Both the position numbers and the translations under genes were made by a program. Shown here piece after piece: positions 13,997-24,610 of a stretch of DNA of 24,680 nucleotides. This stretch comes from Candidatus Baldrarchaeum yapensis. GTDB lineage: Archaea > Asgardarchaeota > Baldrarchaeia > Baldrarchaeales > Baldrarchaeaceae. The notes beneath the pieces are model-generated. The model was given only the letters and a program-made list of their open reading frames with translations, had not been told where the DNA came from and did not search any database. Position 1 is the first letter of the stretch. Every line of letters starts with the position of its first letter. The stretch spans positions 1 to 24,680 of the forward strand of contig JAEOSH010000030.1 of NCBI GenBank assembly GCA_016840465.1, given 5' to 3'.

Positions 13997-14494
13997 ATGG
14001 GTGTTGAGGGTTTAAAAATCGAAGTGGTGACTGTGGAAAAGCCAGAGGACGTTAATGTAATCATCGGTCAGTCTCATTTCATAAAGACCGTTGAGGACCT
14101 TTACGAGGCTCTTGCGGAGTCAGCGCCAAATATAAAGTTCGGGATAGCTTTTTGTGAATCTTCCGGTCCATGCTTAGTGCGAGTTGAAGGAAATGATGAG
14201 GAACTGAAGGAGTATGCGGCGAAAAATGCATTTAAAATTGCGGCTGGGCATTGTTTTATAATAATGATAAGGAACGCATACCCCATAAACGTCTTAAATA
14301 GAATAAAGCAAGTATCGGAAGTCTGTAGAATATTTTGTGCAACTGCAAATCCATTGCAAATAATAGTTGCGGAAACTGGTCAGGGGCGCGGGATTTTAGG
14401 AGTTATAGATGGCTATCGGTCGAAAGGTATCGAAAAGGAGGAAGATGTGAAGGAGAGGAAGGAGTTCTTGAGGAAGATAGGTTATAAACTTTAA
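13997..14494 (+). CDS. DUF355 / adenosine-specific kinase family protein
   Basis: [27 protein letters not shown] and [10 protein letters not shown] are family-typical motifs. Confidence 0.88.
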
Positions 14495-14528
14495 TAACGA
14501 TGAAGTGTAGAGATAACATGGTAACTAT

Positions 14529-14586
14529 GTGATGAGTCTAGCCCCAACTGAAGGCTCAAGCCGATGATGAGGATCTTGAGTGCTGA
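14529..14586 (+). ncRNA. Box C/D methylation-guide sRNA (double guide) targeting pre-tRNA-Leu
   Basis: C box GTGATGA 14529-35; guide GTCTAGCCCCAA; D' CTGA 14548-51; K-loop hairpin GGC-TCAA-GCC; C' ATGATGA 14564-70; guide GGATCTTGAGTG; D CTGA 14583-86. Both 12-nt guides are complementary to the tRNA-Leu gene at 24506-24610. Confidence 0.93.
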
Positions 14587-23420: not shown

Positions 23421-23566
23421 TGGTGCCGGGGCCGGGATTTGAACCCGGGACCTCCGGATCTCTCAGATGGCAACCCTATGAGTTTCACCCGCCGATCTGA
23501 TAATCGGCAACCGGCGCTCTAACCAGGCTGAGCTACTCCGGCCGCGGGTATGCCGCGGTCCCCGGC
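23421..23566 (-). tRNA. tRNA-Met(CAT), elongator type, with three introns (7/8, 30/31, 37/38) and encoded CCA
   Basis: Removing 23536-23559, 23484-23510 and 23460-23476 gives a 78-nt cloverleaf, GCCGGGG-TAGCTCAGCCTGGTTAGAGC-G-CCGGA-CTCATAA-TCCGG-AGGTC-CCGGG-TTCAAAT-CCCGG-CCCCGGC-ACCA. Each junction fits BHB geometry. Confidence 0.9.
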
Positions 23567-23840
23567 GCACTTCTGGCCCCGGCTGTAAATAGAATACCTT
23601 ATATGCGTTATAAAACTTTTCTTAGGAACTCTAAGGTAGCGATATGATATGAGAGTTCAAGTGAATGGAAAACTAGATGTAGGAAAAACGATTTCCGAAC
23701 ATCTCTTCGTTGTCCCTGTCGTTCGGCTAAAAAATCTGATACGACGAATATGAAACCATTTACTTTTTCTGCTGGATGCATGAACTAACGAAAAACTTAT
23801 TTGACACCCATAATCATATTCTACAACGTGGATAATGCGT

Positions 23841-24008
23841 GGGGCCGTAGTCTAGCCAGGTAGGACGGCAGAACCCTGGGTCTCAGGGTTCCGTTAAGGG
23901 CTCCAGAAGAGTGATCTACAACGGGTTTACCGACCGTACGGGATGAAGAACTTCTGGAGCGCTAGAGAAACCCGTTGATCGCGGGTTCAAATCCCGCCGG
24001 CCCCACCA
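23841..24008 (+). tRNA. tRNA-Trp(CCA) with two introns (28/29 and 37/38) and encoded CCA
   Basis: Removing 23870-23897 and 23907-23969 gives a 77-nt cloverleaf with anticodon arm GCGGG-CTCCAGA-CCCGT. Confidence 0.9.
23907..23969 (+). ncRNA. Intron-encoded box C/D guide RNA for C34 and C39 of tRNA-Trp
   Basis: D' CCGA (23930-33) preceded by guide CAACGGGTTT; C' GGGATGA (23940-46); guide CTTCTGGAGC followed by variant D CTAGA (23962). The D+5 rule lands on C39 and C34. Confidence 0.82.
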
Positions 24009-24028
24009 AAACTATTTCTTATACACGT

Positions 24029-24156
24029 GGGGCCGTGGTCTAGCTTGGTATGATGCCAGTGCCGTAAATCTCACGGCGGTGAAGCTTGGGACCTGGTGGA
24101 CCGGAGGACGAGTCCTCCGGGCCAAATCCCGGGTTCAAATCCCGGCGGCCCCACCA
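24029..24156 (+). tRNA. tRNA-Pro(TGG) with two non-canonical introns (30/31 and 46/47) and encoded CCA
   Basis: Removing 24060-24083 and 24100-24126 gives a 77-nt cloverleaf (CCAGG-CTTGGGA-CCTGG; variable loop TGGTC). Central helices are TGCC/GGTG and TGGT/GCCA, with 3-nt bulges. Confidence 0.9.
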
Positions 24157-24204
24157 TTCAGAAACTTTTTAAAATCTAGGAACGGGATAATAAGCCAAGA
24201 TATA

Positions 24205-24278
24205 GCCGCCGTAGCTCAGCCTGGTGGAGCGGCGGGCTTGTAACCCGCCGGTCCCGGGTTCAAATCCCGGCGGCGGCT
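24205..24278 (+). tRNA. tRNA-Thr(TGT), intronless, CCA not encoded
   Basis: GCCGCCG/CGGCGGC acceptor, GCGGG-CTTGTAA-CCCGC anticodon arm, GGGTTCAAATCCC T-arm; TATA TTTTTAAA at about 24166. Confidence 0.96.
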
Positions 24279-24505
24279 TCACTTCGTAGCTTTGTTTTTA
24301 TTTGGGCTACTGTGGAGTTCGGCTCGTCATTAATTCGGTAAAAACTCGCATCTGGATTGTGTATAGTTTTATTCTTTAAATAATGGCATTTAATTTGATA
24401 GTAGTCTCCAATGAGATGTATTTAGAAATTGCTTGAAGACATCTTCTGATGAAAATTTGCTCAGATAAACTGTGAATGTAGTATACCGATTTAGTGAGGA
24501 ATTAC

Positions 24506-24610
24506 TGGTGCGGGGGGTGGGATTTGAACCCACGCAGGCCTGCGCCAGCGGATCTTAAGTCCGCCGCCTCTGGACATCTAGCCCCATTGTCCGGGCTCGG
24601 CCACCCCCGC
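24506..24610 (-). tRNA. tRNA-Leu(TAA) with a D-loop intron (21/22) and encoded CCA
   Basis: Removing 24570-24586 (17 nt) restores the D-loop AGCCCGGACAAAGGC. Anticodon arm GCGGA-CTTAAGA-TCCGC; long variable arm. Confidence 0.92.

What the first reader, a model, noticed from the sequence alone, without database searches (positions are those of the whole stretch)
14529..14586. Double-guide C/D sRNA that grips pre-tRNA-Leu by its D-loop intron and targets wobble base 34
Seen: the D' guide (14536-47, GUCUAGCCCCAA) pairs over 11 nt (10 WC plus a terminal G-U) with UGGGGCUAGAU, the loop of the 21/22 intron of tRNA-Leu (24586-24576); D+5 is an intron G (24583). The D guide (14571-82, GGAUCUUGAGUG) pairs over 11 nt with A31-C41 of the same tRNA (24560-24550); D+5 is position 34 (24557), G-U with UAA and perfect with a CAA isoacceptor. 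Known: the D+5 rule; bacterial TrmL 2'-O-methylates position 34 of both Leu(CAA) and Leu(UAA). Inference: a trans-acting guide specific to the unspliced precursor, making wobble methylation depend on the intron and possibly timing splicing. Prediction: a tRNA-Leu(CAA) elsewhere has the same arm and a similar intron.
Basis: partly seen in the sequence, partly recalled or inferred. Interest (0 to 1): 0.92.

Follow-up and report, generated by a model that had tools for sequence, protein, structure and literature searches.

The report
Guide RNA docking on tRNA-Leu intron
A small archaeal methylation-guide RNA uses one arm to address the wobble base of leucine tRNAs and the other arm to hold a piece of the unspliced precursor that is later cut out. 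The two partner sequences have changed together across many archaeal families, which points to a use for otherwise puzzling tRNA introns.

Summary
Window 14529-14586(+) is a canonical box C/D sRNA. Its D guide puts position 34 of tRNA-Leu at N+5: perfect for Leu(CAA), G·U for Leu(UAA). Its D' guide forms 11 contiguous pairs with the D-loop intron of the window's tRNA-Leu(UAA).

This is not chance. Of 46 tRNA genes in the genome, only Leu(UAA), Leu(CAA) and Ser(CGA) have a good D' site. All three sites are intronic, and the same three tRNAs hold the only usable D sites.

The sRNA family is widespread in the phylum. The D' guide and a removable segment of pre-tRNA-Leu(UAA) (D-loop intron, intron near position 26, intron 3' of the anticodon loop, or 5' leader) co-vary with compensatory changes in at least eight families. 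The docking site usually lies 7-19 nt from the anticodon site.

N34 guides for tRNA-Leu are known from Pyrococcus. I found no description of a trans-acting guide that docks on an intron.

The most likely function is bivalent capture of the unspliced precursor, which helps wobble 2'-O-methylation of weakly matched substrates. Methylation itself is untested, and the G·U at N+5 may prevent it on Leu(UAA).

The parts
14482..14497 (+). A/T-rich TATA-like boxes (TTATAAA, TTTAATAA) 31-47 nt upstream of the C box; putative archaeal promoter
   Evidence: Read from the sequence only. The second box overlaps the stop codon of the upstream adenosine-kinase-like ORF. Inferred, not tested.
14529..14535 (+). 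C box GUGAUGA
   Evidence: The Rfam snoPyro_CD model aligns over its full length: 35.8 bits, E 2.4e-6, below the gathering score of 45.
14536..14547 (+). D' guide GUCUAGCCCCAA; docks on introns of pre-tRNA-Leu(UAA), pre-tRNA-Ser(CGA) and, less well, pre-tRNA-Leu(CAA)
   Evidence: Co-varies with the intron site in other families.
14548..14551 (+). D' box CUGA
   Evidence: Degenerate in many relatives: CGGA, CAGA, UGAG, CCGA.
14552..14563 (+). [quoted passage not shown]
   Evidence: Longer hairpins occur at this place in some relatives.
14564..14570 (+). C' box AUGAUGA
14571..14582 (+). [quoted passage not shown]
   Evidence: The guide core plus D box is found in 94 of 301 genomes of the phylum, against about 4 hits for the reversed control.
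14583..14586 (+). D box CUGA
24508..24610 (-). tRNA-Leu(UAA) gene with one intron in the D loop
   Evidence: ARAGORN miscalls it Asp. Rfam at gathering score does not report it.
24575..24590 (-). D-loop intron of about 16 nt; the exact splice junctions were not determined
   Evidence: Comparison with the intronless Leu isoacceptors. No strict bulge-helix-bulge motif was assigned.
24576..24586 (-). Docking site UGGGGCUAGAU for the D' guide; N+5 = G24583
24550..24560 (-). D-guide site A31-C41; position 34 = U24557 (G·U with the guide)

Best explanation
This is a trans-acting, dual-guide box C/D sRNA of an old family that is widespread in this archaeal phylum.

The invariant D guide addresses wobble position 34. 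In all lineages it addresses tRNA-Leu(CAA) and tRNA-Leu(UAA). In this genome it also addresses tRNA-Ser(CGA).

The D' guide pairs with a part of the precursor that is later removed, an intron or in one family the 5' leader. That site usually lies 7-19 nt from the anticodon site. One sRNP can therefore hold one unspliced precursor by two duplexes.

Inferred function: the extra duplex of about -20 kcal/mol captures the precursor and opens the anticodon stem. Fibrillarin can then 2'-O-methylate N34 on substrates whose D match is imperfect. On this reading the step has to happen before splicing.

Shown: the sRNA architecture, both complementarities, their restriction to the same three precursors, and co-variation of guide and docking site.

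Inferred: expression, simultaneous binding, methylation, and dependence on the intron.
For: Evidence in the window's own genome:
- Canonical boxes and 12-nt guides. A full-length hit to the generic C/D model. Fibrillarin is encoded in the genome.
- Of 46 tRNA genes, only Leu(UAA), Leu(CAA) and Ser(CGA) have a D' site with at least 10 Watson-Crick pairs. The same three have the only 11-pair D sites with a pairable N34. All three D' sites lie in introns, and the introns sit at three different positions.
- Duplex strengths run in opposite directions. For D' they are -21.1, -20.7 and -16.1 kcal/mol for Leu(UAA), Ser(CGA) and Leu(CAA). For D they are -17.1, -16.3 and -19.3.

Distribution: the D guide plus D box occurs in 94 of 301 genomes, against about 4 hits for the reversed control.

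Co-variation between docking site and D' guide:
- Window: GGGGCUAGAU with GUCUAGCCCC.
- f2 (same order): GGGGCUGGAU with AUCCAGCCCC.
- f18 and f8: GGGGUCAGA with UCUGACCCC.
- f7: GGGGUCAUA with UAUGACCCC.
- f5: AAGGGCUAGAU with AUCUAGCCCUU.
- f16: GGGCCGGACA with UGUUCGGCCC.
Shuffle p values are 0.001-0.03 in nine families.

Position and census:
- The docking site sits in a D-loop intron, an intron near position 26, an intron 3' of the anticodon loop, or a leader hairpin. It stays 7-19 nt from the D site in seven families.
- Motif-next-to-anticodon-arm patterns occur in 18 and 42 of 301 genomes. The reversed controls give 0 hits for both.
- A prediction held. f7 genomes with the site GGGGUCAUA each carry an sRNA with the guide AUGACCCC.

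Specificity and register:
- Leu(CAA), the perfect D substrate, lacks a docking site in f5, f7, f8, f16 and f18.
- The N+5 register in the docking site drifts (G1, G3 or G4 of the G run). The D register is fixed on position 34.
Against: - There are no expression or modification data.
- A Watson-Crick pair at N+5 is reported as essential for methylation (PMC6009581). The best-docked substrate, Leu(UAA), offers G·U there.
- f13, f25 and f29 have only bulged or weak sites in Leu(UAA).
- f27 has the motif but no sRNA was found.
- G057 has the motif but its sRNA has an aberrant 5' half.
- In f18, f13 and one f5 genome the same motif also lies in the canonical intron of elongator tRNA-Met. The D guide fits the tRNA-Met loop with two internal mismatches.
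- Whether a 7-19 nt linker lets both duplexes form on one sRNP is argued from the known antiparallel layout of the two guides. It was not modelled.
Confidence: 0.55

Rival explanations
1. Non-catalytic hold or chaperone. The sRNP binds pre-tRNA-Leu(UAA) by both guides but does not methylate U34, because N+5 is a G·U pair. Only C34 of Leu(CAA), and here of Ser(CGA), is methylated. On Leu(UAA) the binding would fold, protect or delay the precursor, for example until other modifications or splicing occur.
For: - A Watson-Crick pair at N+5 is reported as essential. Conserved non-Watson-Crick N+5 positions in Pyrobaculum dual guides are read as cases where the interaction matters rather than the methylation (PMC6009581).
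- N5 is G in every member recovered, although the search pattern itself required it.
- The docking duplex is stronger than the D duplex.
Against: - G·U is a pair and not a mismatch. Its effect at N+5 was not addressed in the text read.
- From general knowledge, Um34 derivatives on tRNA-Leu(UAA) are made by TrmL in bacteria and Trm7 in yeast.
- A Pyrococcus sRNA is predicted to target that same position (PMC7994747).
- Ser(CGA) has a Watson-Crick N+5 and still carries a perfect docking site.
Confidence: 0.25
2. The D' guide works as an ordinary methylation guide whose real product is a 2'-O-methyl G inside the intron (G24583 here). That modification would control cleavage by the splicing endonuclease or the fate of the excised intron, independently of the D guide.
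For: - The window has consensus D' (CUGA) and C' boxes and a 12-nt spacing.
- The motif also occurs in tRNA-Met introns, where the D guide fits poorly.
Against: - The nucleotide facing N+5 differs between lineages: the first G in f5, the third in the window, the fourth in f18.
- D' boxes are degenerate in many members.
- In f12 the site lies in a 5' leader rather than an intron.
- The constant short distance to the D site is not needed under this model.
Confidence: 0.12
3. The intron match is coincidental or a by-product. On this reading the D' guide really targets rRNA or another RNA, and introns share the motif only through common descent of mobile introns.
For: - A partial match to the conserved 23S peptidyl-transferase-region segment CUGGGUUUAGAC (9 Watson-Crick pairs plus 1 G·U, with an internal mismatch) at C59:3832.
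- From general knowledge, related introns at different tRNA positions are known from Thermoproteales.
Against: - That rRNA segment is invariant, yet the guides changed together with the intron sites. The change was wholesale in f16.
- The exact 10-mer has no rRNA hit in the complete genome G039.
- Reversed-pattern controls gave 0 of 301 genomes.
- The three sites in the own genome coincide with the three D substrates.
Confidence: 0.03

Closest known systems
Pyrococcus box C/D sRNAs predicted to methylate position 34 of tRNA-Leu(CAA) and tRNA-Leu(UAA) (Clouet-d'Orval et al. 2001, as summarised in PMC7994747)
   Same: - A trans-acting C/D sRNA.
- An antisense element over the anticodon loop with N34 at N+5.
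- The same two tRNAs as targets.
   Different: - Pyrococcus is described as having one sRNA per tRNA, with no role for introns.
- Here a single guide with G at N5 covers both isoacceptors, and the second guide pairs with an intron.
- Sequence homology to the Pyrococcus RNAs was not tested, because their sequences were not at hand.
Intron-encoded box C/D guide of euryarchaeal pre-tRNA-Trp (Haloferax volcanii; Cm34 and Um39)
   Same: - Wobble 2'-O-methylation by a C/D RNP that is tied to an intron and acts on the unspliced precursor.
   Different: - In pre-tRNA-Trp the intron is the guide.
- Here the intron is the docking target of a guide encoded 10 kb away.
- Reviews call the Trp case a unique example (PMC4090602; PMC11408192).
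Dual-guide archaeal sRNAs with both targets within 100 nt on rRNA (Pyrobaculum, PMC6009581), and the extra base-pairing of yeast snoRNAs (from general knowledge)
   Same: - Two nearby duplexes on one substrate.
- They are thought to stabilise binding and help folding.
- A weak guide may be rescued by a strong neighbour.
   Different: - Those substrates are rRNA and both sites stay in the mature RNA.
- Only about 20% of tRNA-targeting Pyrobaculum sRNAs are dual guides.
- Introns were removed before the Pyrobaculum target search.
H/ACA sRNAs of Sulfolobales and Aeropyrum proposed to guide pseudouridine 35 in intron-containing pre-tRNA-Tyr (PMC2651775)
   Same: - A trans-acting guide RNP proposed to act on an intron-containing pre-tRNA.
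   Different: - A different guide class and chemistry.
- Only the abstract was read here.
Intron-dependent m5C34 of eukaryotic pre-tRNA-Leu(CAA) by Trm4/NSUN2; protein enzymes TrmL and Trm7 for Nm34 of tRNA-Leu
   Same: - The same tRNA family and the same nucleotide.
- For Trm4, the wobble modification requires the intron.
   Different: - These are protein-only enzymes, and the intron acts through structure rather than by pairing with a guide RNA.

Membership tests
Archaeal box C/D sRNA | C box RUGAUGA near the 5' end and D box CUGA at the 3' end | tested here: met
   GUGAUGA at 14529-14535 and CUGA at 14583-14586.
Archaeal box C/D sRNA | Internal D' and C' boxes, with guides of about 12 nt between C and D' and between C' and D | tested here: met
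   CUGA at 14548-14551 and AUGAUGA at 14564-14570. Both guides are 12 nt.
Archaeal box C/D sRNA | Match to a curated covariance model | tested here: inconclusive
   snoPyro_CD (RF00095) aligns over positions 1-58 of 58 at 35.8 bits, E 2.4e-6. This is below the gathering score of 45. Nothing was reported at the gathering threshold.
Archaeal box C/D sRNA | The partner methyltransferase is present in the genome | tested here: met
   Fibrillarin PF01269 scores 349 bits on contig C64. Nop5 and L7Ae were not searched.
Archaeal box C/D sRNA | The RNA is expressed and assembled into an sRNP | not testable with these tools
   Support is indirect only: TATA-like boxes upstream, and conservation of the gene in many genomes.
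tRNA-Leu N34 methylation guides (Pyrococcus type) | An antisense element of at least 9-10 nt over the anticodon loop, with position 34 at N+5 | tested here: met
   11 Watson-Crick pairs with Leu(CAA). 10 Watson-Crick pairs plus G·U at N+5 with Leu(UAA).
tRNA-Leu N34 methylation guides (Pyrococcus type) | Nm34 is actually present on the tRNA | not testable with these tools
   Needs RiboMeth-seq or mass spectrometry.
Intron-encoded C/D guide (pre-tRNA-Trp type) | The guide RNA lies inside the intron of its own target | tested here: not met
   The sRNA gene at 14529-14586(+) is separate from the tRNA gene at 24508-24610(-). The introns are 16-28 nt long and contain no boxes.
Dual-guide sRNA with neighbouring targets | Both guides pair with the same RNA within 100 nt | tested here: met
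   The gaps are 15 nt in Leu(UAA), 16 nt in Leu(CAA) and 7 nt in Ser(CGA). In relatives they are 7-19 nt.

The most novel reading that the evidence does not exclude
Non-canonical tRNA introns, and in one family a leader hairpin, are kept in a large archaeal clade because they serve as docking sites for a modification-guide RNP. The intron can move within the gene or between tRNAs, so long as it carries the sequence complementary to the guide and stays close to the anticodon loop. One guide can thereby serve several imperfectly matched tRNAs: Leu(UAA), Ser(CGA), and perhaps elongator Met. On this reading, wobble methylation is obligatorily ordered before splicing.
Probability: 0.3. Interest if true: 0.88.

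Novelty: new variant of a known kind. Interest (0 to 1): 0.78.

Why it matters
Why archaeal tRNA genes keep introns, especially at non-canonical positions, is an old open question. The only accepted link between an intron and a guide RNP is the intron-encoded tRNA-Trp guide.

This finding describes a second kind of link. An intron serves as the landing pad for a separately encoded guide. The link is supported by compensatory changes across many families and by a prediction that held in further genomes.

It has three practical consequences:
- It suggests a reason why second guides of tRNA-targeting sRNAs appear as orphans. Target searches have used spliced tRNAs.
- It offers a mechanism by which one guide can serve several isoacceptors.
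- It makes intron function directly testable, using compensatory mutants in a reconstituted sRNP.

Tried and rejected
- **rRNA as target.** No match as good as the tRNA matches was found in the 23S or the assembled 3' half of the 16S. The 5' half of the 16S is not in the assembly. In the complete genome G039, the five genomic copies of the 10-mer that lie outside the sRNA loci and the tRNA-Met gene show no rRNA or other Rfam family at gathering score.
- **tRNA callers.** ARAGORN with introns mislabels the multi-intron tRNAs: Leu(UAA) as Asp and Ser(CGA) as Phe. I replaced it with an acceptor and T-arm scan.
- **A wasted search.** One pattern search was mis-specified by one base and found nothing. 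It was repeated correctly.
- **Ser(CGA) elsewhere.** A D-guide-compatible loop was found only in f16, and those genes have no intron. Ser targeting therefore looks specific to this lineage.
- **f27.** The docking motif is present, but the only hits for a matching sRNA were the antisense strand of the tRNA gene itself.
- **A dedicated tRNA-Met C34 guide.** None was found in five genomes or in the window's own genome. The tRNA-Met intron motif remains unexplained.
- **Generality within this genome.** Among 27 C/D candidates found with a strict pattern, no other pairs with an intron.
- **Exact splice junctions.** No strict bulge-helix-bulge motif could be assigned to the D-loop intron.
- **Literature.** Four full-text searches and eight papers were consulted. 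None describes a trans C/D guide pairing with a tRNA intron. The original Pyrococcus paper (PMC92551) is not held.

Full report
**1. What is at the coordinates**

Window 14529-14586(+) reads as a textbook archaeal box C/D sRNA:
- C box GUGAUGA
- a 12-nt D' guide, GUCUAGCCCCAA
- D' box CUGA
- a 12-nt spacer that can form a small hairpin
- C' box AUGAUGA
- a 12-nt D guide, GGAUCUUGAGUG
- D box CUGA

The generic Pyrococcus C/D covariance model aligns over its whole length at 35.8 bits (E 2.4e-6). That is below its gathering score of 45, so it supports the architecture and is not a curated family call. Nothing was reported at the gathering threshold.

The gene sits between an adenosine-kinase-like ORF and trpA. 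A/T-rich TATA-like boxes lie 31-47 nt upstream. The genome encodes fibrillarin.

The assembly is 2.27 Mb in 100 contigs, with 46% G+C and a 65% G+C 23S rRNA. It is the only member of its family among the genomes held. The best hits of a neighbouring HypF protein, at about 50% identity, are MAGs labelled Nitrososphaerota, Culexmicrobium, Hadarchaeales and Bathyarchaeia.

**2. The two complementarities**

The gene at 24610-24508(-) is tRNA-Leu(UAA). Its D loop holds about 16 extra bases compared with the four intronless Leu genes of the genome.

The D' guide forms 11 contiguous pairs (10 Watson-Crick plus a terminal G·U) with 24586-24576 inside that insertion. N+5 faces G24583.

The D guide forms 11 pairs with A31-C41. 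N+5 faces U34 (24557) as a G·U pair.

**3. More than chance in this genome**

Sites of this quality for the D' guide occur 18 times in 4.5 Mb. About 0.02 would be expected in all tRNA genes together.

I rebuilt the tRNA set with an acceptor and T-arm scan, because ARAGORN mislabels the multi-intron genes. Among 46 tRNA genes:
- Exactly three have a D' site with at least 10 Watson-Crick pairs: Leu(UAA); Leu(CAA) on C67 (GGGGCUAUAC, 10 of 12); and a class-II tRNA on C86 that is Ser(CGA) (UGGGGCUAGAU, identical to the Leu(UAA) site).
- The same three are the only ones with an 11-pair D site and a pairable N34. Leu(CAA) is perfect. Ser(CGA) has one U·G at position 35.

All three D' sites are intronic, and the introns sit at three different places: the D loop, the 5' strand of the anticodon stem, and 3' of the anticodon loop. 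The gaps between the two sites are 15, 16 and 7 nt.

Duplex energies run in opposite directions. The substrates with the weaker D duplex have the stronger D' duplex.

No match as good as these was found in the 23S or the assembled half of the 16S. The best is a 9 Watson-Crick plus 1 G·U match with an internal mismatch to the conserved CUGGGUUUAGAC segment.

**4. The family**

A search with the sRNA in 60 relatives hit mainly the C' box, D guide and D box half. Reading the loci showed complete C/D sRNAs with the same D guide and related D' guides.

Across 301 genomes sampled from the phylum, the D-guide-plus-D-box pattern occurs in 94 genomes from 22 families. The reversed control gave about 4 hits. 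Of 20 newly fetched hits, about 15 had clear C/D architecture. The 94 is therefore an upper bound for true members.

All four genomes of the sister family in the same order carry the sRNA.

**5. Guide and docking site change together**

I collected pre-tRNA-Leu(UAA) genes from 27 genomes and paired each with its own sRNA. Docking site and D' guide by lineage:

| Lineage | Docking site | D' guide | Location of site |
|---|---|---|---|
| Window | GGGGCUAGAU | GUCUAGCCCC | D-loop intron |
| f2 | GGGGCUGGAU | AUCCAGCCCC | D-loop intron (A-U became G-C) |
| f18, f8 | GGGGUCAGA | UCUGACCCC | D-loop intron (two adjacent pairs swapped) |
| f7 | GGGGUCAUA | UAUGACCCC | intron 3' of the anticodon loop |
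| f5 | AAGGGCUAGAU | AUCUAGCCCUU | intron 3' of the anticodon loop |
| f21 | GGGCUAGA | UCUAGCCC | D-loop intron |
| f16 | GGGCCGGACA | UGUUCGGCCC | intron near position 26 (wholly different pair, 9 Watson-Crick + 1 G·U) |
| f12 | AAGGGUCAG | (matching) | hairpin loop of the 5' leader |

Best contiguous runs are 8-11 pairs, with shuffle p of 0.001-0.03 in nine families. f13, f25 and f29 have only bulged or weak sites.

The docking site lies 7-19 nt from the D site in seven families, whichever side it is on.

Two census patterns placed the motif next to the Leu(UAA) anticodon arm. They matched 18 and 42 of 301 genomes, and added f4, f6, f23 and f27. The reversed controls matched none.

A prediction was then tested. 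f7 genomes whose intron reads GGGGUCAUA should hold an sRNA with AUGACCCC upstream of the Leu D guide. Four of the five genomes tested do.

**6. What the pattern says about function**

- The D register is fixed, with N5 always opposite position 34. The nucleotide opposite N+5 in the docking site drifts (first, third or fourth G), and D' boxes are often degenerate. Selection therefore seems to act on the pairing, not on one methylated intron nucleotide.
- Every docking site lies in sequence that is removed during maturation, so the bivalent complex can exist only on precursors.
- Leu(CAA), the perfect D substrate, has no docking site in f5, f7, f8, f16 and f18, and only degenerate ones here and in f2. 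The imperfect substrates have good ones.

The simplest reading is that the second duplex compensates for a weak first one, and that a single guide with G at N5 serves both C34 and U34 isoacceptors. This matches the published view of dual guides on rRNA, where a strong guide is thought to stabilise a weak neighbour within 100 nt (PMC6009581).

**7. Caveats**

- The same paper states that a Watson-Crick pair at N+5 is essential for methylation. It reads conserved non-Watson-Crick N+5 positions as interactions without modification. The G·U on Leu(UAA) may therefore mean a non-catalytic hold, which I keep as the main rival.
- The motif also sits in the canonical intron of elongator tRNA-Met in f18, f13 and one f5 genome. 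There the D guide fits with two internal mismatches. No dedicated tRNA-Met guide was found. I cannot explain this.
- f27 has the motif but no sRNA was found.
- The G057 sRNA has an aberrant 5' half.
- Families are related and the genomes are mostly MAGs. I count families rather than genomes, and I treat absence as "not found".

**8. What is known**

[quoted passage not shown] The D-guide half of this finding is therefore a known kind.

That review states that tRNA-targeting sRNAs generally use one guide while the other has no target. The Pyrobaculum study removed introns before target prediction.

Reviews of intron-dependent tRNA modification list only the intron-encoded tRNA-Trp guide for archaea, and call it unique. 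I found no paper describing a trans-acting C/D guide that pairs with a tRNA intron. The library is incomplete and the original Pyrococcus paper is not held.

**9. Verdict**

The catalytic consequence is open.

It is a new variant of a known kind: a dual-guide N34 sRNA whose second guide docks on removable precursor sequence.

Noticed in passing
window 23424-24610: A cluster of five tRNA genes, most of them interrupted:
- elongator tRNA-Met, 23424-23542(-), with two introns
- two long multi-intron genes, 23841-24005(+) and 24029-24153(+)
- tRNA-Thr(UGU), 24205-24278(+)
- tRNA-Leu(UAA)
ARAGORN gives wrong identities for several of them (Gly, Pyl, Asp).
   Followed up: partly
L068 (G039), L210 (G030), L201 and L202 (G035), L057 (G028): The canonical 37/38 intron of elongator tRNA-Met carries the same docking motif in three other families, with up to 11 Watson-Crick pairs to the local D' guide. 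The D guide fits the tRNA-Met loop only with two internal mismatches (U·U and C·A at positions 36 and 37). The window's own tRNA-Met introns lack the motif.
   Followed up: partly
own genome, outside the window: C56:1424-1472(+) and C58:16237-16287(-): Two further C/D sRNA candidates have both guides matching exon sequence of the Leu tRNAs (variable arm and T stem; D arm and variable arm). tRNA-Leu may therefore be addressed by three sRNAs in this genome.
   Followed up: no
own genome C86:14355-14487(+): tRNA-Ser(CGA) has two introns and an anticodon stem identical to that of the Leu(UAA) and Leu(CAA) genes. In other families, Ser(CGA) genes with a D-guide-compatible loop were seen only in f16, and those have no introns.
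   Followed up: partly
L264-L266, L039 (family f12): The docking motif lies in the loop of a hairpin about 10 nt upstream of the tRNA-Leu(UAA) 5' end. This is a leader rather than an intron. These genes also have an intron right after the acceptor stem, around positions 7-9.
   Followed up: partly
L073 (G039:C1, about 1739859): A second sRNA-like gene lies 200 nt from the Leu sRNA on the opposite strand. It has the same type of D' guide and good C, D' and C' boxes, but no recognisable D box.
   Followed up: no
window 14552-14563; L244, L012, L243, L248: [quoted passage not shown] It is 3 bp here and 7-8 bp in some relatives. From general knowledge of archaeal C/D sRNAs, whose D'-C' spacers are usually only a few nucleotides, this looks unusually long; I did not check it against a reference set.
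   Followed up: no
L311/L315, L312/L316, L313/L317, L314/L318 (family f7); window 14529 versus 24610: The sRNA gene and the tRNA-Leu(UAA) gene lie on the same contig, about 39-42 kb apart, in four f7 genomes. They are 10 kb apart in the window.
   Followed up: no
own genome C59:3832: The D' guide has a partial match (9 Watson-Crick pairs plus 1 G·U, with one internal mismatch) to the universally conserved 23S segment CUGGGUUUAGAC near the peptidyl transferase centre. I judged it not to be the target, because the guides vary while this segment does not.
   Followed up: yes
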